Part shown: one piece after another, positions 41,017 through 50,716 of the stretch
How the letters are laid out: each line of letters opens with the position of its first letter
How positions within the stretch are numbered: the stretch's first letter is position 1
Virus record (IMG/VR): IMGVR_UViG_3300027967_000093
DNA: 64,000 nucleotides
Direction: 5' to 3' (one strand)
Source: a virus
Made by a program: the position numbers and the translations under genes
Notes under the pieces: generated by a model
What the model was told of the DNA's origin: nothing
The model's input: only the letters and a program-made list of their open reading frames with translations
Databases searched by the model: none

Positions 41017-43884
41017 ATGTCAGATAATAAGGCATTACCGTTAAAGTTAAAAGACAGTGATGGTAATCTCCAACAGATAACTGCATCGGAAAAGAACTAT
41101 GTTGCTTACCTTGCGGGTCTCCAAACCGCACAAGCAGATAGTTCTGATGTAGGACTTCTTACACTCTCATCGGGTGGGAATCGTCTCATCGGTTCTCTAA
41201 CCGATACCTATTACCCTGAACCTGTTGGGACTCACCCATACAACCAAACATCTGTTGTTACCACAACAACAAACATGTATCAGATAAACGGTACTGTACT
41301 TGAAAATGACAGTGACTGGAGAAAACCAGTAGGTCATTATGATGGTAATGTTTATGAGATGTCAGAGACTGACTTAAATACTTTCGTTGATGACCTCAAT
41401 GGACGTATTGCATTATCAGACTATCCTGGCTCACTGAAATTATCTTCTACACGTCCAAGTGCAGACTATGATATTCTTATCCCGAGTGTACTGACCGACC
41501 AACGTGCAGATTCTTCTGGTTCTCCTTTTACTGTAAATGATTATAGTATCTGGCGCAGAACTAGTATGACCGCCCCCACATCTATTCGGGATGACCTGAA
41601 TGGTGTGAGTAGTATTGTTGGTATCAAAAGAAGTTTCGGTGACAGTGGTGACTACCAAGGTCTGACTAAACTTACTGATCGTCAAGTTCAAGTAACTATT
41701 GGTCAACGTGCAAAGACAAGACGTGCGATTGATAACAATGTCGGTTCATACGAATTAAGAACATCTTCTCAGGGTGCACCTGTTGTTGGTACTTGGAAGA
41801 ATGTTGGTGCAGCAGTAAATACTATTCGTCTTGTTGACGAACAGAACTATACGCGCACCCGCGTAAGTGCGTACACGCGTGACCGCAACTCTGCATATAC
41901 TCGTGTCAGTTCAAGAACAATCAATAGTTCCTTTGCGGGTAACTATATTGGTAATTATACAAGAGACTTTGCCGGTAACTATACAAGGGGATTCCTTGGT
42001 AATTATGTTGGTGATTTCACTGGTAACTATACTCGTGACTTTGCAGGTAATTATACAAGAGATGTACAAACTAACTTTGCGGGGGATTACGTAGGTAATT
42101 ACTCTCGTGGATTTATCGGAAACTATTCAAGAGATTTTGCAGGTGAATATAGTCGCAACTTCGTAGGTAACTTCCTTGGGGAATATACGAGAACCTCTAC
42201 AAGAGGAAGACCATCTGCATTTAGTAGAGTAAGAAGTTCTAACTATTCACGAAACTTTGCGGGTAATTACACTCGTGGATTTATTGGAGACTATGCGGGT
42301 AACTTCGTAGGGGAATATTTAAGAACCTCTACTCGCACTCGTACTTCTAATTATGCGCGTACCTCAACACGAATCCGAGAATCCGCGTATGTTAGAATAC
42401 GCACATCGATATATGCGGCCGACTATACTCGTACTCGTAATTCTAATTATACTAGAACCAGTACTCGTACTCGTAATTCTAACTATACTAGAACATCTAC
42501 TAGAACAAATGCGGCAGATTTCATCGGAAATTATATTCGATTAAGAACCTCTTCGTATACAAGAAATAGTACTAGAACACGTACATCTTCATATCTAAGA
42601 GGATTTACTGGAACTACTGATTATATTGGGAACTACTCTCGTACCGACTTTACCCGAATTAGAATAACTAATATCGAAGGACAAAACTTCTATTATACTG
42701 GTAACTATATCGGCCCAAGTCAGTCTTTCACTGGGAACTTCATAGGTACATCACAATCTGTTCGTTACTCTATGGCCGCAGTTGAGGTTGGTGTGTATGA
42801 TGATGAACGTTGGGTAAAAACCAATTACACTTCTTCCGGATATACAACATTCAGTGTATATTGGGGTAATGTTGAAGTGTATAATTCTGGAGTTCAACCA
42901 TTATATACTGACAGTACGGTGGCTGTTGCTGGTGGTTATGTTTACAGTAGACAAGGAGACCCCATCACTGGTGGCGGTGGTTCTGGGTTTAGTTACTCAA
43001 TATACAATGTAAATCGTAATATTGCTGGTAGTTATACGGGTAATTATATTACCACCCGACAGTCTGCGTTCAGTAGAGGTTTCACCGGAGACTTTACTGG
43101 TAATTATACTCGTAATGTTACCGATGACTATACCAGAACAAGAACTTCTAGTTATGCCGGAGACTTTGTAGGCGACTACACACGTGACTTCGCAGGTAAT
43201 TACGTAGGTGATTATACGCGTGACTTCGCAGGTAATTACATTGGCGACTACACTAGAGACTTTAGTGGTGATTATGCACGTGATTTCATAGGTAACTACA
43301 CTGGTGATTATACAAGAGATTTCGCAGGAAATTATGTTGGAGACTATACCCGAGTATCTACTCGAACATCTGCACGTACTAGATTCTCTGCATATGCTCG
43401 TACCCGTGTATCAAACTATTCACGTGACTTCATAGGAAACTACTCAAGAACTTTTGCAGGAGATTATATTGGTGATTATGCCCGTATTTCTACACGTACT
43501 CGAGTAAGTTCATATAGTCGTCTGAGAAATTCTGCATACACTAGAACAAGAACTTCTACATACACTGACAATTACGTTGGAGATTATGTTGGTAACTTCA
43601 TCGGTGAATATACGCGTACCAGAAACTCTGCGTTTACTCGTAATGACACCTTAGATTCTACTCGCACTAGAGTATCAACTTATACCAGAGGTAGAAACTC
43701 AGCCTATACCCGAGACTCTACTCGTTCACGTTCATCCAGTTATGTCGGAGAATATACAGGGAACTACTCTAGGGCGTTTGTCGGAAACTACTCAAGGTCT
43801 TTTGTAGGTGATTATATAGGTCAGACAATTGGTAACACAACTTACGCAGTAGAAACGTATACCTTGTATGTAAGAACTGCATAA
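41017..43884 (+). CDS. Self-complementary repeat (hairpin) fibre-like protein A, 955 aa
   Basis: ~278-aa N-domain, 63-tetrapeptide arm, ~150-aa centre, 63-tetrapeptide complementary arm, C-terminal ETYTLYVRTA. Confidence 0.8.
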   Translation: MSDNKALPLKLKDSDGNLQQITASEKNYVAYLAGLQTAQADSSDVGLLTLSSGGNRLIGSLTDTYYPEPVGTHPYNQTSVVTTTTNMYQINGTVLENDSDWRKPVGHYDGNVYEMSETDLNTFVDDLNGRIALSDYPGSLKLSSTRPSADYDILIPSVLTDQRADSSGSPFTVNDYSIWRRTSMTAPTSIRDDLNGVSSIVGIKRSFGDSGDYQGLTKLTDRQVQVTIGQRAKTRRAIDNNVGSYELRTSSQGAPVVGTWKNVGAAVNTIRLVDEQNYTRTRVSAYTRDRNSAYTRVSSRTINSSFAGNYIGNYTRDFAGNYTRGFLGNYVGDFTGNYTRDFAGNYTRDVQTNFAGDYVGNYSRGFIGNYSRDFAGEYSRNFVGNFLGEYTRTSTRGRPSAFSRVRSSNYSRNFAGNYTRGFIGDYAGNFVGEYLRTSTRTRTSNYARTSTRIRESAYVRIRTSIYAADYTRTRNSNYTRTSTRTRNSNYTRTSTRTNAADFIGNYIRLRTSSYTRNSTRTRTSSYLRGFTGTTDYIGNYSRTDFTRIRITNIEGQNFYYTGNYIGPSQSFTGNFIGTSQSVRYSMAAVEVGVYDDERWVKTNYTSSGYTTFSVYWGNVEVYNSGVQPLYTDSTVAVAGGYVYSRQGDPITGGGGSGFSYSIYNVNRNIAGSYTGNYITTRQSAFSRGFTGDFTGNYTRNVTDDYTRTRTSSYAGDFVGDYTRDFAGNYVGDYTRDFAGNYIGDYTRDFSGDYARDFIGNYTGDYTRDFAGNYVGDYTRVSTRTSARTRFSAYARTRVSNYSRDFIGNYSRTFAGDYIGDYARISTRTRVSSYSRLRNSAYTRTRTSTYTDNYVGDYVGNFIGEYTRTRNSAFTRNDTLDSTRTRVSTYTRGRNSAYTRDSTRSRSSSYVGEYTGNYSRAFVGNYSRSFVGDYIGQTIGNTTYAVETYTLYVRTA
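41851..43815 (+). repeat. Coding 12-nt-period degenerate repeat (xGNY/xRDF/xRTR/xSAY words)
   Basis: Tetrapeptide periodicity in frame with the ORF; arms 41851-42606 and 43060-43815, 756 nt each. Confidence 0.9.
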
Positions 43885-43928: not shown

Positions 43929-46900
43929 GTGGCGGCATCTGATATACCATTAAAAAGTTATGGAGTTAACGGAGACCTTCAGGAGGTAACCCCTTCTGAA
44001 GAGAACTACCTTGCATATCGTGCAGGACTTCATATATCGACAAGTCAGGGAACTGATGAGGGCGACCTGACTCTTACTAATAGTGGCCATTCTGTCGGTC
44101 AATTCGTTGATACCTATTTTAATCAGGCGGATGGAACACACCCCGCAACTTCTATTACTTCTGGTTCAACAACCACTACATTATATCAACGTGACGGAAC
44201 TGCACCTTACAATGGTCTTGACTATCTAAGACCTATTGGATATAATACAAGTGGTGATGTGGGTTTCCACGAATTCACCGATTCTGATATGGATACCTTA
44301 TGTACTCGTCTGAATGCACGTATTGCAGTATCAGACTATCCTGGCACATACTACCTTGGTACCTCTGCACCTAGTGCGGATTATAGTGTGGACATTGCGG
44401 ATGTCTATACCGACACCGTAGGTAACGGAACATCTACAACATATAACATCTATCAAAGAGACACAATGACTGCCCCCACGACTGTTCGTCCGATAGGGAT
44501 TAAGTACAGTGGTGGTTCTTATGATGGATTGATTGAGTTAAATGATGCCCAGATAAACTATACACTTGGACAACACTGTAGAACTTTACGTGGTAAAGAT
44601 GGTGCGATTGGTTCGTACCAACTAAGAAGTTCTGCACAGGGTGTTCCGGTATCGCCAGGCACATGGGCTTCGAAGGGTACTGCGACCAATACCAAAAGGA
44701 CTACGTCTGAGGTTGCATACACCAGAACGCGTTCATCTTCTTATACAAGAGACCGTTCTTCTACATATGCAAGAACCCGAAATTCAATATACACCAGAAA
44801 TAGTACCGCAGTTTTTGCAGGTGACTTTGTTGGCAATTACGTTGGTGATTATACAAGAGATTTTGCGGGTAACTATGCAAGAGACTTTGCAGGTAATTAT
44901 GCAGGGGAATACGTAGGAAATTATTCACGTACAAGAACATCTGCATTTACTCGTAATAGTACAGACACCTTTACTCGCGATTTTACCGGAAACTATGCAC
45001 GTACTCGTGTGTCGACCTATACTCGAGATAGTCTGAATATCTTCACTGGTAACTTTATCGGGAACTACACTCGCACCAGAATAAGTGCATATTCTCGTAA
45101 CAGTACTCGAAATAGAATAAGTGCATATTCACGTACAAGAACATCAACATACACCACAGTGTTTTCCGGCAACTATATCGGAAACTTTATTGGTGATTAT
45201 ACACGTACCCGAGTTTCCAACTATGCAGGAACATATACAAGAACACGTAACTCAGCCTATACTCGCACACGCGTGTCTGCATATACACGCGACCGTGTAA
45301 CTGATTTCACCGGAGATTATATCGGTGATTATGCAAGAACTCGTGTATCTGCGTACAGCCGAACCAGTACCCGTACCAGAACTTCTGCATACAGTAGAAC
45401 TAGATCCTCCACATATACACGTGACCGTACATCAACCTTCACGGGTGACTTCGTTGGTAATTACTCACGGAACCGAAATTCTGCATATACCAGAACTCGT
45501 GTATCAAATTATGCGGGGGACTTCACTGGCAATTATTCGCGTACTCGTGTATCCGCATATACTAGAGACAGAGTAACAAACTTTACCGGAGACTTCATTG
45601 GTAACTATACCCGTGGTCGCATCTCTACATATACACGTGACAGATTACAGACTTTTACTGGTGACTTTGTTGGAAACTATTCGCGCACCTTTATTGGCGA
45701 TTATTCACGTACCTTTATCGGAAACTATTCTCGTGCGTTCGCTGGTGACTATGTCGGAAACTATGCACGGACTCGCGTAACAGATTCAACTAGAACTCGA
45801 AACTCAAACTATACACGCGCATCAACAAGAAACCGTTCCTCTGCATATTCGCGTGACCGTGTTACTGATTTTGCAGGTAACTTTGTTGGGAACTACACTC
45901 GTGATTTTGTCGGTAACTTTGTCGGTAATTATTCTCGTGGATTTGCAGGTGAATATACTGGTAACTATGCAAGGTCATTCTTAGGCAATTACACCGGAAA
46001 CTACACAAGAGGATTCCTTGGTAATTATGTCGGTGATTTCGTAGGCAATTATGCTCGTGGGTATGGCGGTAACTTTACTGGAAACTATGCTCGTGGATTT
46101 GTGGGTAACTATGGAAGAACACGAAACTCAGCATATACCCGAGATAGTACTCGTACATCTACCCGTGTTCTGAACTATCAAAGAATTTCGACTCGAACTT
46201 CGACTCGTGTATTTGACTACACTAGAATCAGTACAAGGACTTCGACTCTTACATTGTCATATAGTCGTGTAGTTTCATACAGTGGTGACTTTACGGGTAA
46301 CTATACCCGCACCCGCACGGCAGTAGGTGACTATACGCGAACCCGCACCGCAACTGGTACCTATACTCGTACTCGTACTGCGACCGGAGATTATACTCGT
46401 GCACGTGCCGAAGGTGTAACATATACCGGAAACTACACCAGAACATTGTACTATGCAGGTGACTTTACTGGTAATTACACTCGTACCTTGTACTATGTTG
46501 GTAACTTTACGCCTACTGCCGACTACACTCGAGTTAGCACTGCAATTGCGTACTATACAGGGAACTACACACGTACCGGATACTATGTCAGATACAGTAT
46601 TTCTGGTGGGACGTATGTCGGAAACTATACTCGTGTTTTGTTATTCGCAAGAAGTCCACCGTCTGATCCATATGCGATTGAATATTACACAAAAACATCC
46701 GCATATACTCGTACTCGTTCTGGAACAACAAGTTACATAGGTAACTATACTCGTACACTTGATTACACGAGAGTTCGAACCCCGACATTATACTACTTAG
46801 GTAACTATGTTGGTGCATCTGATGGTACCGCAGAATATACTCGTTCACGCGCAGGTGGTACAGTCGAAGGCCAAACGATTTACTATGTCGGTAACTATTC

Positions 46901-48776
46901 ACGTGTCTTGCCGGCCTCCACTCGTACTAGTACTGCGACCGGAGATTATACTAGGGTTTCTACTCGTACTAGTACTGCGACCGGAACTTATACTCGTGCA
47001 CGTGCGTCTACGTTATATTACACAGGCAACTATACTCGTACATTATATTACGTAGGCGACTACACTCGCACATTGTATTATGTTGGTAACTATACTCGTA
47101 CACTGTATTACGTAGGTGACTATACGCGCAACTCTACTCGTGTTTCTACGGCAACAGTGTATTATACCCGTACCGGATACTATGCAGGTGACTTTACTGG
47201 TAACTATACTAGATTAGGTTATTATGCAGGAGAATTTGTCGGTGATTATACACGTACCGGATACTATGCAGGAAACTTCATAGGTGATTATTCTCGTGCG
47301 TTCGCTGGTAATTACTCAAGAACTCGTAACTCGGCATACGCACGTATATCAACACGTACTCGTTATTCTGCATATGCTCGTACTCGTATTACTGACTCTA
47401 CAAGGACTAGAGTATCTGCTTACGCTGCGGACTACACTCGCAGCCGTTCTTCTGCATATACTAGAGTATCAAGTAGAACAAGATTTTCTGCGTACACTCG
47501 TGACAGATTACAGACCTTTACTGGTAACTTTACACGTGACCGAGTGACAAACTATGCGGGTAACTTTATTGGAAACTATGCACGTACCTTTGTAGGGAAC
47601 TATACCGGAGATTACACTCGAGATTTCGCAGGAAATTATGTCGGGGATTTCATTGGAGAATACGCACGTACATCAACACGTACTCGTTTCTCTGCGTACA
47701 CCCGTGACCGTATTTCTACTTACTCAAGGAATCGTGTGTCTGCATACGCTAGAACTCGTATAACCGATTATATTGCAAACTATGTGGGTAACTACTCAAG
47801 AACATTTACTGGTAACTATACTCGTAATAGTACCGCAGTTTTTGCAGGTAACTTTGTAGGTAATTACTCACGTGACTTTGCAGGTGAATACACTAGAGTA
47901 TCAACCAGAACTTCTACTCGTGACTTTGTGGGTGACTATACTCGTGACTTCACTGGTAACTATGCAAGAACTCGTATAACCGATTATATTGCAAACTATG
48001 TTGGTAATTATTCTCGCAACTTTGCAGGAAACTATACCAGAGACTTTGGTGGAAATTATGTGGGTGATTATACCCGAGACTTTGCAGGTGAATACACTCG
48101 CAACAGTACAGTAGATTTCGCAGGTAATTTCGTAGGTAATTACAGTAGAAACTTTGCAGGTAACTACGCCAGAGACTTTGCCGGTAATTATGTTGGCGAT
48201 TACACCCGAGACTTTGCAGGTGAATATTCAAGAGACCGACAAACCGACTTTATTGGAGAGTACACTGGTAACTTCGCAAGAGACTTTGCGGGTAACTATA
48301 CCAGAACTTTCGTAGGTGATTTTACTGGCAACTATACTCGTGGATTCCTTGGTGAATATACGCGTGACTCTCTGCAAGACTTTACTGGTAACTTTGTTGG
48401 GAACTACTCACGTGACTTTGCAGGAGAATATACAAGGGTTCGTGTATCCAACTATGTTGGGGACTTCACTGGTAACTACAGCCGAGACTTCATTGGTGAG
48501 TATACACGAACGTCTACTCGTACTTCTACTAGAACTCGTGTATCAACATTTAGTAGAACTAGAACTTCTGCGTATTCTGCGGACTATACACGTAATCGCG
48601 TAACTGATTTCACCGGAGACTTCTCAGGAAATTATTCTCGCAACTTTGCAGGTAATTATTCTAGGTCGTTTATCGGCAATTATTCTCGTGACTTTGTAGG
48701 GAACTATGTTGGTACCACACTAGACTCGGGAACTGAGGTTATTGAAACCTATACACTTTATGTAAGAACTGCATAA
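43929..48776 (+). CDS. Self-complementary repeat (hairpin) fibre-like protein B, 1615 aa (GTG start)
   Basis: Paralogous N-domain (PLK...G.LQ..T.SE.NY.AY.AGL; RIA.SDYPG; GSY.LR.S.QG.P) and identical C-terminus ETYTLYVRTA. Confidence 0.8.
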   Translation: MAASDIPLKSYGVNGDLQEVTPSEENYLAYRAGLHISTSQGTDEGDLTLTNSGHSVGQFVDTYFNQADGTHPATSITSGSTTTTLYQRDGTAPYNGLDYLRPIGYNTSGDVGFHEFTDSDMDTLCTRLNARIAVSDYPGTYYLGTSAPSADYSVDIADVYTDTVGNGTSTTYNIYQRDTMTAPTTVRPIGIKYSGGSYDGLIELNDAQINYTLGQHCRTLRGKDGAIGSYQLRSSAQGVPVSPGTWASKGTATNTKRTTSEVAYTRTRSSSYTRDRSSTYARTRNSIYTRNSTAVFAGDFVGNYVGDYTRDFAGNYARDFAGNYAGEYVGNYSRTRTSAFTRNSTDTFTRDFTGNYARTRVSTYTRDSLNIFTGNFIGNYTRTRISAYSRNSTRNRISAYSRTRTSTYTTVFSGNYIGNFIGDYTRTRVSNYAGTYTRTRNSAYTRTRVSAYTRDRVTDFTGDYIGDYARTRVSAYSRTSTRTRTSAYSRTRSSTYTRDRTSTFTGDFVGNYSRNRNSAYTRTRVSNYAGDFTGNYSRTRVSAYTRDRVTNFTGDFIGNYTRGRISTYTRDRLQTFTGDFVGNYSRTFIGDYSRTFIGNYSRAFAGDYVGNYARTRVTDSTRTRNSNYTRASTRNRSSAYSRDRVTDFAGNFVGNYTRDFVGNFVGNYSRGFAGEYTGNYARSFLGNYTGNYTRGFLGNYVGDFVGNYARGYGGNFTGNYARGFVGNYGRTRNSAYTRDSTRTSTRVLNYQRISTRTSTRVFDYTRISTRTSTLTLSYSRVVSYSGDFTGNYTRTRTAVGDYTRTRTATGTYTRTRTATGDYTRARAEGVTYTGNYTRTLYYAGDFTGNYTRTLYYVGNFTPTADYTRVSTAIAYYTGNYTRTGYYVRYSISGGTYVGNYTRVLLFARSPPSDPYAIEYYTKTSAYTRTRSGTTSYIGNYTRTLDYTRVRTPTLYYLGNYVGASDGTAEYTRSRAGGTVEGQTIYYVGNYSRVLPASTRTSTATGDYTRVSTRTSTATGTYTRARASTLYYTGNYTRTLYYVGDYTRTLYYVGNYTRTLYYVGDYTRNSTRVSTATVYYTRTGYYAGDFTGNYTRLGYYAGEFVGDYTRTGYYAGNFIGDYSRAFAGNYSRTRNSAYARISTRTRYSAYARTRITDSTRTRVSAYAADYTRSRSSAYTRVSSRTRFSAYTRDRLQTFTGNFTRDRVTNYAGNFIGNYARTFVGNYTGDYTRDFAGNYVGDFIGEYARTSTRTRFSAYTRDRISTYSRNRVSAYARTRITDYIANYVGNYSRTFTGNYTRNSTAVFAGNFVGNYSRDFAGEYTRVSTRTSTRDFVGDYTRDFTGNYARTRITDYIANYVGNYSRNFAGNYTRDFGGNYVGDYTRDFAGEYTRNSTVDFAGNFVGNYSRNFAGNYARDFAGNYVGDYTRDFAGEYSRDRQTDFIGEYTGNFARDFAGNYTRTFVGDFTGNYTRGFLGEYTRDSLQDFTGNFVGNYSRDFAGEYTRVRVSNYVGDFTGNYSRDFIGEYTRTSTRTSTRTRVSTFSRTRTSAYSADYTRNRVTDFTGDFSGNYSRNFAGNYSRSFIGNYSRDFVGNYVGTTLDSGTEVIETYTLYVRTA
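44721..48707 (+). repeat. Coding degenerate tetra/hexapeptide repeat
   Basis: Outer arms 44721-46160 and 47268-48707 (1440 nt each); inner arms 46161-46508 and 46920-47267 (348 nt each). Confidence 0.9.
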
Positions 48777-48841: not shown

Positions 48842-49306
48842 ATGAGTTTTAAACGATGGATGGATAATGCATTTTGGGAAAATCCTGAGAAATCCAAAGT
48901 CAATTGTATCCTTGAGATGGAAGATGATATTGGTCGTCAAACCAAACAAGTGATGTTATTGAGTCGTCTTAATAAAGACGGTAGTGAAAATGAAATGTTC
49001 GCTGAAGTTGTGGGTGCACTAGGTGAAGAATCTATTGACCGAAATACCGAAGACCGTAAAGTTCGGAAAGCTGCAGAAATCGAAGAACGTAAACAACGTG
49101 ACACCGAACATGCACGTGCACGTAAACTCGAAGAACTTTTTAACTACAAACTAGAAGTCTTTGAGACAGAAGAGATTAAAAATTCCAAGAACCGGAAGTT
49201 AAAGGCAAAACTTAGACGCGCAAAATCTAAAGTTGAAGTTAACCTATATGCAATGATGTTGTTACAAGAAGCACTTGAGGCGAATGAGAATGTCGGAGAA
49301 GAGTAG
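48842..49306 (+). CDS. Hypothetical protein, possible fibre assembly chaperone
   Basis: NAFWENPEKSKVNCILE recalls tail-fibre-assembly protein N-termini; charged helical C-half; directly after fibre genes. Confidence 0.4.
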   Translation: MSFKRWMDNAFWENPEKSKVNCILEMEDDIGRQTKQVMLLSRLNKDGSENEMFAEVVGALGEESIDRNTEDRKVRKAAEIEERKQRDTEHARARKLEELFNYKLEVFETEEIKNSKNRKLKAKLRRAKSKVEVNLYAMMLLQEALEANENVGEE

Positions 49307-50024
49307 AGGTTATGTACTTGTTGCATCTAACAAGATAAACTTCTATCGATATGCAATTAACCTTGCAGAGTCGATTCTAGATTATTATGAAGACGCAAAG
49401 ATTACATTGTTTTGTGAACCATGGATGTTCGAGGAACAACACCGAGAACTATTTGATAATGTCGAATGGTGCAGTAGTCACTATCGTGCTAAACTCGAAG
49501 GTATGGCTCGTTCTCCTTATGACCTGACTATGTACCTCGATGTTGATATGGAATGTGAACACGAAGACATTGCGATATGTTTCGATGAACTGGAGAGACG
49601 CGAAGAGGATATTCTATTCTCTGAACTCACAGATGACCGCGAGTATGTCTATGCAGAACGTCAGTTTGATACACCTGAAGGTAAGACTAAATTTACCTTG
49701 TGTGGGGGTGTCGCTCTATACGACATGACTAAACCTATCGTAAGAGAGTTTATGTCTGACTGGGAGATGCTCACTAAAGACCAAATGGATGGTAATTGGT
49801 GGCCTGACGGATACATCGATAGTCTCAAGTCATGGGATCAGTTTAGTCTCTGGTGGTTGACTGAAAGAGAAGATAAATACAAAGACCTCAAGTACGGTAT
49901 ACTTGAAGACGATTTGCGTTGGAACTATTATAACGCATTCAACTGGGCAATCACCAAACCGACTGGCCCTGTTGTTATTCGACACTACTCTTGTGGTTTA
50001 GATAAAGACGGATATATCATATGA
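49290..50024 (+). CDS. GT-A fold glycosyltransferase-like
   Basis: RGYVLVA, SPYDLTMYLDVD (DxD), GGV.LY, WDQFSL, RWN, VIRHY. Confidence 0.65.
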   Translation: MSEKSRGYVLVASNKINFYRYAINLAESILDYYEDAKITLFCEPWMFEEQHRELFDNVEWCSSHYRAKLEGMARSPYDLTMYLDVDMECEHEDIAICFDELERREEDILFSELTDDREYVYAERQFDTPEGKTKFTLCGGVALYDMTKPIVREFMSDWEMLTKDQMDGNWWPDGYIDSLKSWDQFSLWWLTEREDKYKDLKYGILEDDLRWNYYNAFNWAITKPTGPVVIRHYSCGLDKDGYII

Positions 50025-50716
50025 GTTATATGCAGGACATCCCTGTTAAGAATAGGGACTTATTAAAAATATTGAATCGATATCGAGACTTCTTGATGAA
50101 GGATGTCGATTCTTTCAAAGAGACATTTCACCTACAATGTCAAGAAGATGCAAGTAATAGACATTACTGGGCAGGTGACACTCACCTACAAGAAATTCTT
50201 GACCAAGGTACTCGACACGAAGGGTTTCCGGATTCTATCTACGGGTACGAACTTGGAGTGCATAGAAAAGACCACGAGTTTTATGAACGTGGTGTGCATC
50301 CATCTATCCGCAAAGACAGGACTGCGGAACTTGCGTGGATGCAACAAGAGATTCTTGGATGGTTGGGAGTAAGACACAATGCACTTACCGCATTCTATCC
50401 ACCTGGCGGTTATATCTCTTGGCACAATAATGCGAACGCCCCCGCATACAATCTAATATTCTCATGGTCAGAGACTGGAGACGGTCAATTTAATTATGTT
50501 GACCCTACCACCAAAGAAGTCGTGGAGATGAAGGATAAACAAGGTTGGAACTGTAAAGCCGCATACTTTGGACATTATGAAGAACCCGAACGACTATTCT
50601 ACCACTCAGCAAAAACTGACTGTTGGAGAGTGACGGTATCATTCATTTTCGATACCTCGGAATTGTCCTCGGTTATCAGAGATGATTTAATCGAAGATAT
50701 AATGTCTGAAGAGTAA
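50021..50716 (+). CDS. 2OG-Fe(II)/cupin-like oxygenase
   Basis: FYPPGGYISWHNN, G.F.Y, distal YH and R.T.S motif. Confidence 0.55.
   Translation: MSYMQDIPVKNRDLLKILNRYRDFLMKDVDSFKETFHLQCQEDASNRHYWAGDTHLQEILDQGTRHEGFPDSIYGYELGVHRKDHEFYERGVHPSIRKDRTAELAWMQQEILGWLGVRHNALTAFYPPGGYISWHNNANAPAYNLIFSWSETGDGQFNYVDPTTKEVVEMKDKQGWNCKAAYFGHYEEPERLFYHSAKTDCWRVTVSFIFDTSELSSVIRDDLIEDIMSEE

What the first reader, a model, noticed from the sequence alone, without database searches (positions are those of the whole stretch)
46161..47267. Second hexapeptide pairing code and a branched, RNA-multiloop-like tip in protein B
Seen directly: inside the tetrapeptide stem, 116-aa inner arms (46161-46508 and 46920-47267) mix 4-mers with 6-mers, and 6-mers always face 6-mers. 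TA(T/V)G(D/T)Y pairs with TRTLYY, and TRV(L/F)xY pairs with TRxGYY, so Gly sits opposite a large hydrophobe. The centre (46509-46919) parses as two sub-hairpins. One is TGNY TRTGYY..VGNY TRVLLF, loop ARSPPSDPYAIE, then TKTSAY TRTR..IGNY TRTLDY TRVR. The other is LGNY, loop VGASDGTAEY, then TRSR. Inference: a distal segment with different twist and exposed Tyr-Tyr, ending in a forked tip that may bind a receptor or glycan.
Basis: partly seen in the sequence, partly recalled or inferred. Interest (0 to 1): 0.75.

Follow-up and report, generated by a model that had tools for sequence, protein, structure and literature searches.

The report
Six-residue pairing zone near fibre tip
A 1615-residue tail-fibre protein of an uncultured T4-like phage appears to fold back on itself, and near its tip the four-residue pairing units are joined by six-residue units that always face each other; the proposed forked tip reads better as one longer hairpin plus a short extra loop on the returning strand.

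Summary
In fibre B (window 43929-48776), the two 116-residue inner arms each parse into 24 words, 10 of them six-residue words. All ten 6-mers face 6-mers on the same gap-free antidiagonal as the outer stem. A pairing matrix trained without any fibre-B data picks that register (72 bits against 22). The same 6-mer pairs occur in Phage C48C1 and in IMG/VR homologues. Each 6-mer pair has exactly one word ending in YY. Eight of ten pairs set Gly against Leu or Phe at position 4.

The forked tip is only partly supported. The same matrix strongly supports one hairpin with 40-residue arms (aa 867-906 and 921-960, 14-residue loop; 25.4 bits, 0 of 3000 word shuffles reach it). What remains is a 31-37-residue insertion on the returning strand. 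C48C1 carries five knob insertions on its returning strand.

This scan has already noted the fold-back fibre family on other DNA. New here are the conserved distal 6-mer/YY zone and the return-strand insertion reading.

The parts
43929..48776 (+). Fibre B gene, 1615 aa. It has an N-terminal domain of about 264 aa, two 596-residue complementary arms, a 137-residue centre and a 22-residue C-terminal peptide ending in the family motif YTLYVRTA.
   Evidence: ORF and translation. N-domain is 41% identical to fibre A. It lies in a T4-like baseplate/fibre module. The homologue in Phage C48C1 matches at 35% over 94% of the query.
44721..46160 (+). Outgoing outer arm, aa 265-744, four-residue words only.
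   Evidence: Pairs with aa 1114-1593 on antidiagonal 1858.
46161..46508 (+). Outgoing inner arm, aa 745-860: 14 four-mers and 10 six-mers.
46509..46526 (+). Six-residue word TPTADY, aa 861-866. It connects the main stem to the terminal hairpin on the outgoing strand, and its partner is uncertain.
46527..46646 (+). Outgoing strand of the terminal hairpin, aa 867-906: four 10-residue units, each a 4-mer plus a 6-mer.
   Evidence: Best antidiagonal segment in the centre: 25.4 bits with a matrix free of fibre-B data, and 0 of 3000 word shuffles reach it.
46647..46688 (+). Proposed true fibre tip: a 14-residue Pro/acid/Tyr loop, aa 907-920 (ARSPPSDPYAIEYY).
   Evidence: It is enclosed by the terminal hairpin. 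It aligns with the Pro/acid-rich terminal loop of the unbranched homologue in L004.
46689..46808 (+). Returning strand of the terminal hairpin, aa 921-960.
46809..46919 (+). Insertion on the return strand, aa 961-997 (31-37 residues depending on the alignment), irregular and Gly/Ala/Glu-rich. It may hold a one-word mini-hairpin, TRSR facing VGNY.
   Evidence: It is the only gap in the global fold-back alignment, and it lies on the return strand. It overlaps the only stretch of the repeat region flagged as non-word, aa 947-989. The mini-hairpin scores +4.1 bits, which is not significant.
46920..47267 (+). Returning inner arm, aa 998-1113: 14 four-mers and 10 six-mers, 8 of which end in YY.
47268..48707 (+). 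Returning outer arm, aa 1114-1593.
46296..46366 (+). 30-nt tandem array (2.4 copies) encoding the TRTR + TAxGxY units of the outgoing arm.
47009..47125 (+). 30-nt tandem array (3.9 copies) encoding the facing TRTLYY + VGxY units of the returning arm.
   Evidence: It faces the array at 46296-46366 in the pairing.
41017..43884 (+). Fibre A, a 955-aa paralogue with the same pairing code and a globular knob at its tip. It served as an independent training set.

Best explanation
Fibre B is a receptor-binding tail fibre of an uncultured T4-like phage related to Kyanoviridae. It belongs to an unsolved family that I call fold-back word fibres.

Shown from sequence:
- From a conserved N-terminal domain the chain runs out for about 640 residues with a strict two-residue alternation. 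One face carries R, Y, G, F and S. The other carries T, N, A, D and V.
- The two halves are complementary, read antiparallel, without a single indel in the main stem.
- The code sits on the R/Y/G/F/S face. RxR words face GxY words, and SxY words face RxF words.
- In the distal 130-190 residues, six-residue words add a third coded position (Leu or Phe against Gly) and exactly one extra Tyr on the other face per pair.
- The centre contains one statistically solid hairpin with 40-residue arms.
- All word lengths are even.

Inferred:
- The chain is an extended beta strand. It turns in a 14-residue Pro/acid/Tyr loop (aa 907-920) and runs back beside itself to end next to its start.
- Six-mers must face six-mers, or every unit distal to the mismatch would fall out of register; the even word lengths would also keep the two faces of a strand in phase.
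- That hairpin is the continuation of the shaft to the real tip.
- The remaining 31-37 residues are a lateral bulge on the returning strand, roughly 40 residues below the tip. The knobs of relatives sit in the equivalent position.
- The loop, the bulge and the Tyr-rich distal zone are the likely host-contact surfaces.
- The fibre is probably a trimer, like all solved phage fibres.
For: - Word parse and 6-mer/6-mer facing.
- One gap-free antidiagonal over 596 residues.
- Cross-validated code: fibre A to B 345 against 197 bits, B to A 184 against 105, outer arms to inner arms 44 against 2.
- Matrix trained on other phages only: 72 against 22 bits for the inner arms.
- Strict parity of the two faces, with odd-face aromatics only distal.
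- YY doublets lie within about 210 residues of the fold-back midpoint in 5 of 6 B-like arm pairs of 415-694 residues; the sixth, L006, has one outlier at 579.
- Mutual information is concentrated on the R/Y/G/F face at offsets +1 and -1.
- The same 6-mer pairs occur on gap-free diagonals in Phage C48C1 and in L004.
- Terminal hairpin: 23.2 bits with P = 0.003; 25.4 bits with the B-free matrix and 0 of 3000 shuffles.
- Dynamic programming and global fold-back alignments give a continuous outgoing strand and a single return-strand gap of 31 residues.
- C48C1: the outgoing strand 262-849 is nearly continuous, while the return strand has four 125-180-residue knob gaps within that alignment. A fifth knob stretch, aa 1809-2130, lies between it and the distal hairpin.
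- The unbranched homologue L004 has a similar Pro/acid terminal loop.
- Context is a T4-like baseplate and fibre module.
- gp37 precedent for a chain that goes out and returns, and for Gly packing against Phe across strands: PMC6957217.
Against: - There is no reliable 3D model. AlphaFold2 without an alignment gave pLDDT 27.5 and 31.6, so strand pairing, register and oligomer state are all inferred.
- No close relative of the centre exists in the collections searched. No compensatory change inside the terminal hairpin could therefore be observed.
The 6-mer part of my matrix rests on few pair types, so its negative scores for novel 6-mer pairs are soft.
- An extended ribbon of about 640 residues would be about 0.2 micrometres long, which is long for a tail fibre.
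- Receptor binding is inferred from context only.
Confidence: 0.55

Rival explanations
1. The centre is a perfect three-way junction: a closing stem (aa 861-876 with 981-996), a first hairpin (aa 877-950) and a second hairpin (aa 951-980). This would give a forked tip.
For: The parse is exact in word lengths (6,4,6 / 4,6,4,6,4,6 / 6,4) and leaves no unpaired residue at the junction. Its two 4-mer pairs fit the code, at +3.1 and +3.6 bits. Its first hairpin is the core of the segment that is statistically supported.
Against: With the matrix free of fibre-B data, the closing stem scores -12.7 and the second hairpin -11.0 bits, while the competing pairings of the same words score +4.6 and +4.1. 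Dynamic programming, global alignment and the low-confidence AlphaFold2 strand pattern all prefer the longer single hairpin. The closest simple homologue, L004, has an unbranched tip.
Confidence: 0.15
2. The 137-residue centre folds into a small compact tip domain, a degenerate counterpart of the knob seen in fibre A and most relatives. Its word-like sequence would only reflect descent from repeats.
For: Most family members carry a globular knob at the fold-back point. The centre is richer in Pro, Leu, Glu and Lys than the arms.
Against: The centre lacks the conserved knob motifs of relatives (W-N/G-G and YYWRG-like). It keeps word periodicity and parity. It also contains a significant antiparallel complementary segment.
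Confidence: 0.15
3. The arms do not pair within one chain. The words build a parallel homotrimeric shaft, and the mirror complementarity is a by-product of repeat evolution.
For: Solved phage fibres are mostly parallel trimers (general knowledge).
Against: Position-specific antiparallel complementarity cross-validates between paralogues and between phages. It holds without indels over 380-640 residues in at least six proteins of different arm length. The arms are not DNA inverted repeats. Facing 30-nt arrays expanded in both arms. The global alignment places C48C1's inter-knob word blocks opposite its outgoing arm.
Confidence: 0.07

Closest known systems
Needle (domains D10-D11) of the phage T4 long-tail-fibre tip protein gp37 (PDB 2XGF recalled from my own knowledge; description in PMC6957217)
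   Same: Both are distal fibre proteins of T4-like phages. In gp37 the chain leaves a proximal domain, runs to the tip and returns: D10 is built from residues 811-881 and 1010-1026, so the receptor-binding tip lies in mid-sequence. In the gp37 stem a Gly packs against a Phe of a neighbouring strand.
   Different: The gp37 needle is about 130 residues and is held by seven iron ions bound to His. Fibre B has no His, Cys, Met or Trp in 1329 residues. It has arms about five times longer and a discrete 4-mer/6-mer word code. It shows no sequence similarity to any Pfam family or PDB chain.
Other fold-back word fibres: fibre A of this window, the 3347-aa protein of Phage C48C1 (OQ984149), and the IMG/VR homologues in L004, L005, L006 and L026
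   Same: They share the N-terminal domain, the C-terminal YTLYVR-type peptide, the four-residue code and a distal zone with 6-mers and YY doublets. They also share gap-free arms.
   Different: Fibre B has no knob at all. Its tip is made of words plus a 14-residue loop, and it has a short insertion on the return strand. Fibre A and L005 have a knob at the tip. C48C1 has one tip knob and five return-strand knobs.
RNA stem-loops with bulges or multiloops (an analogy, not a family)
   Same: Register is set by pairwise complementarity of units read antiparallel. Paired segments keep equal length, and unpaired material is tolerated as loops or bulges.
   Different: The units are 4- or 6-residue words. 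The code is based on side-chain size and charge on one face of a presumed beta strand. A true multiloop is not supported here.

Membership tests
Fold-back word fibre family (no published name found) | Conserved N-terminal domain of about 260 aa | tested here: met
   41% identity to fibre A over 276 residues. Similar N-termini occur in many database relatives.
Fold-back word fibre family (no published name found) | C-terminal YTLYVR-type peptide | tested here: met
   Present in fibres A and B, in C48C1 and in about 50 further retrieved relatives; the tally of 54 counts fibre B twice.
Fold-back word fibre family (no published name found) | Two equal arms, complementary when read antiparallel, under a code that transfers between proteins | tested here: met
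Fold-back word fibre family (no published name found) | Distal zone in which 6-mers face 6-mers, with one YY word per pair | tested here: met
   Fibre B: 10 of 10 pairs. C48C1 and L004 have the same zone on gap-free diagonals. YY doublets are distal in all six arm pairs apart from one outlier in L006.
T4 gp37 needle | Chain runs to the tip and returns, so both ends are proximal | tested here: inconclusive
   Strongly implied by sequence complementarity, but there is no structure.
T4 gp37 needle | His-x-His motifs that bind iron along the axis | tested here: not met
   No His in aa 265-1593.
T4 gp37 needle | Detectable sequence similarity to gp37 or related Pfam/PDB entries | tested here: not met
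   No Pfam family at E <= 0.01. The only PDB matches, at E about 0.5, are to an unrelated SH3 protein.
T4 gp37 needle | Homotrimer | not testable with these tools
   -12.7 bits with the matrix free of fibre-B data; only TRVS/VGNY is positive.
   18.6-20.4 bits for the core. The best segment in the centre has P = 0.003, and 0 of 3000 shuffles reach it with the B-free matrix.
   -11.0 bits; only LGNY/TRSR is positive, at +3.6.

The most novel reading that the evidence does not exclude
The word code is a general, programmable register system for very long beta ribbons that also allows true branch points. Fibre B would then carry a sequence-encoded three-way junction near its tip, a protein analogue of an RNA multiloop, and the six-residue words would switch the local geometry of the ribbon to present a Tyr-lined binding surface.
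Probability: 0.15. Interest if true: 0.85.

Novelty: new variant of a known kind. Interest (0 to 1): 0.6.

Why it matters
If the arms pair as the sequence implies, the register of a roughly 0.2-micrometre protein ribbon is written in a small side-chain code. The code has two word lengths that must be matched across about 250-730 residues of chain in the 6-mer zone. The 6-mer/YY zone is conserved next to the tip in fibres from different phages. It marks where shaft turns into host-recognition module, and so tells where to look for host-range determinants in uncultured marine T4-like phages. The return-strand insertion reading gives a simple rule for how these fibres take on knobs without disturbing the stem. 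It also gives testable residue pairs for structural work. Such a code could also serve as a design principle for long beta-ribbon materials.

Tried and rejected
- AlphaFold2 without an alignment on aa 745-1113 (pLDDT 27.5) and on aa 853-1005 (pLDDT 31.6). Both are too poor to count. I did not send them to fold search, because matches to such models are meaningless.
- No whole genome is held for this window.
- Pfam, PHROGs, PDB sequence search and the ESM Atlas gave nothing informative for the fibre.
- Searches for a close relative of the centre found only repeat-level matches of 31-48% identity: 5.8-billion and 1.8-billion protein libraries, IMG/VR and JGI metagenomes. Covariation inside the tip could therefore not be tested.
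- I tried to fix the physical register from side-chain volume sums; the result was inconclusive.
- Dynamic programming with low loop penalties on the centre alone over-predicts tiny local hairpins, so I used it only with the flanking arms.
- Sub-hairpins that I parsed by eye in the centre of L006 are not supported by the matrix: 10.5 bits at best, and -11 for the parse.
- An apparent side hairpin in C48C1 (aa 2577-2642 with 2819-2884) is out of word frame, and the two segments are direct repeats that each precede a knob. I replaced it by the return-strand knob alignment.
- Self-fold alignments of more distant family members were fragmentary. The rule that insertions sit on the return strand is therefore shown only for fibre B, C48C1 and L026.
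- The tblastn hits in Synechococcus phage S-RIM2 are an unrelated VTGN-type low-complexity repeat.
- Literature searches found no description of this fibre design.

Full report
**Context**

The finding lies inside one ORF, window 43929-48776 (+), 1615 aa. Upstream genes match T4-type baseplate families: tube cap, wedge subunits, hub/lysozyme and a DUF4815 protein. The window has no megablast match among 50,697 phage records. The fibre's only full-length relative there is a 3347-aa protein of Phage C48C1, family Kyanoviridae (35% identity over 94% of the query). Two downstream genes are 66-69% identical to their C48C1 counterparts, in the same order. So this is an uncultured T4-like phage related to cyanomyoviruses. 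The gene just upstream (41017-43884, fibre A) is a paralogue whose N-terminal domain is 41% identical.

**Check of the observation**

In protein numbering the finding is aa 745-1113.
- The outgoing inner arm (aa 745-860) and the returning inner arm (aa 998-1113) each cut into 24 words: 14 four-mers and 10 six-mers.
- Read antiparallel, every 6-mer faces a 6-mer. For word lengths alone the chance is 1 in 1.96 million.
- TRTLYY faces TA[TV]G[DT]Y five times. TRV[LF]xY or TLTLSY faces TRxGYY three times.
- Two further regularities appear. Each of the ten pairs has exactly one word with Tyr at position 5, that is, one YY word. Eight of ten pairs have exactly one Gly at position 4, set against Leu or Phe.
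- The inner arms lie on the same antidiagonal (i+j = 1858) as the outer arms, so the whole stem, aa 265-860 with aa 998-1593, has no indel.

**Is it more than chance?**

I built a log-odds matrix of facing residues and cross-validated it.
- Trained on fibre A, it finds the right diagonal in fibre B (345 bits against 197). Trained on B, it finds the right diagonal in A (184 against 105).
- Trained only on 4-mer regions, it finds the right diagonal for the inner arms (44 against 2).
- Shuffling word order in the C arm gives -38 +/- 16, and 0 of 20000 shuffles reach 44. Shuffling only within length classes gives P = 0.003.
- After adding stems from C48C1 and four IMG/VR or metagenome homologues and removing all fibre-B data, the inner arms still score 72 bits against 22 for the next diagonal.
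- There is no DNA inverted repeat. Facing 30-nt tandem arrays exist in both arms.

**Conservation**

- C48C1 has a distal hairpin, aa 857-1296 with aa 1369-1808. It is gap-free at 281 bits and surrounds a 72-residue knob.
- Its 6-mers also face 6-mers: TRVLDY and TRTLVY face TRTGYY, TRTLYY faces TNTGYY, and so on.
- The 1115-aa protein in L004 has 383-residue gap-free arms. There TRTLYY faces T[PRA]TGxY nine or so times next to the tip.
- In six arm pairs of 415-694 residues, YY doublets lie within about 210 residues of the fold-back midpoint, apart from one outlier at 579 in L006.

The 6-mer zone is therefore a conserved distal module, not a quirk of this gene.

**Anatomy of the code**

- Across both 596-residue arms the two-residue parity never breaks. 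Even word positions are R, Y, G, F and S (plus L and A in 6-mers). Odd positions are T, N, A, D, V, S and I.
- Aromatic residues at odd positions occur almost only between aa 841 and 1112.
- All word lengths are even, which keeps the parity.
- Mutual information between facing positions is concentrated on the even face and peaks at offsets +1 and -1 (1.03 and 0.96 bits).
- This fits two neighbouring beta strands with like faces on the same side. An attempt to fix it from volume sums failed.
- The repeat region has no His, Cys, Met or Trp.

**The centre (aa 861-997)**

- Only its first hairpin is statistically supported. It is the best antidiagonal segment in the centre (23.2 bits; word-shuffle null 14.1 +/- 2.2; P = 0.003).
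- With the matrix that saw no fibre-B data, the best segment lengthens to aa 865-907 with aa 920-962 (25.4 bits; 0 of 3000 shuffles).
- The competing pairings of the same words are positive: TRVS with LGNY and TAIAYY with TPTLYY, which extend the first hairpin to 40-residue arms, and TRSR with VGNY.
- An RNA-style dynamic program on the 369 residues gives the same picture. So do a global fold-back alignment and a self-fold of the whole protein.
- That picture is a continuous outgoing strand, one terminal hairpin closed by the 14-residue loop aa 907-920, and a single gap of 31 residues on the return strand.
- AlphaFold2 on aa 853-1005 is unreliable (pLDDT 31.6). Its strands do form one symmetric hairpin over aa 864-960, followed by coil.
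- The loop aligns with the Pro/acid-rich terminal loop of the unbranched homologue L004.

**Branching in relatives**

- A global fold-back alignment of C48C1 pairs a nearly continuous outgoing strand (aa 262-849) with five to six return-strand word blocks. Four knob gaps of 125-180 residues separate them.
- A further knob stretch, aa 1809-2130, lies before the distal hairpin.
- L026 has a 44-residue unmatched word insertion, also on the return strand.
- Fibre B is the only family member examined with essentially no globular segment.
- I therefore read fibre B's extra 31-37 residues as the minimal form of a return-strand insertion rather than a coded branch. More distant relatives gave fragmentary alignments, so the rule is not general.

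**Mechanism**

Shown: the complementarity, its transfer between proteins, the parity, the 6-mer rules, the terminal hairpin statistics and the side of the insertion.

Inferred:
- The arms are extended beta strands lying side by side.
- Matched 6-mers are needed to keep everything distal in register.
- The distal zone presents one extra Tyr per 6-mer pair on the otherwise small, polar face.
- The loop aa 907-920 is the tip.
- The tip, the bulge and the Tyr zone contact the host.
- The fibre is a trimer.

T4 gp37 gives a precedent for a chain that goes out and returns, and for Gly-Phe packing between strands (PMC6957217). Fibre B fails the defining His-iron feature and has no sequence similarity to gp37.

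**Novelty**

I found no description of this design in the paper library. Earlier notes of this scan report the same fold-back family on several other genomes, so the family is not new to the scan. New here are three points: the conserved distal 6-mer/YY zone with its two rules, the re-reading of the 'fork' as a longer terminal hairpin plus a return-strand insertion, and the C48C1 architecture with knobs on the return strand only.

**Limits**

There is no trustworthy structure, no close homologue of the centre, and no expression or population data.

Noticed in passing
window 48842-50716: Three small genes directly after fibre B. At least the first two are conserved in the same order after the C48C1 fibre (69% and 66% identity), far better than the fibres themselves (35%). 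The 249-aa protein has only a sub-threshold glycosyltransferase family 2 hit (E = 0.11). The others have no family. They may be fibre assembly or modification factors.
   Followed up: partly
L001:8001-18044 (Phage C48C1, 3347-aa protein): The outgoing strand aa 262-849 is nearly continuous, while the return strand is interrupted by knob domains of about 125-320 residues. The protein also contains an exact internal duplication of about 80 residues around aa 2015-2180. That duplication could be real or an assembly artefact.
   Followed up: partly
L026 ORF 277-4743, aa 1115-1158: A 44-residue stretch of ordinary words on the return strand has no partner on the outgoing strand and looks like a recent tandem duplication. 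It would be an uncompensated length change in an otherwise matched stem.
   Followed up: no
database proteins P0003-P0010 and similar: A second large family has the same word repeats and a central knob, but a different N-terminal domain (starting MSYGLQITGND-like) and a different C-terminal domain of about 170 residues. This suggests that the word stem is a module shared by at least two fibre types.
   Followed up: no
L002:3500-5581 (Synechococcus phage S-RIM2 structural protein): It contains a long run of VTGN-type four-residue repeats. That run caused the weak tblastn hits, but it lacks the R/Y code and the mirror arrangement.
   Followed up: partly
window 42600-43060 (fibre A tip, about aa 531-681): A globular knob at the fold-back point carries W-G-N and GGYVY-like motifs that recur in the knobs of C48C1, L005 and the second family. 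Its fold was not determined.
   Followed up: no
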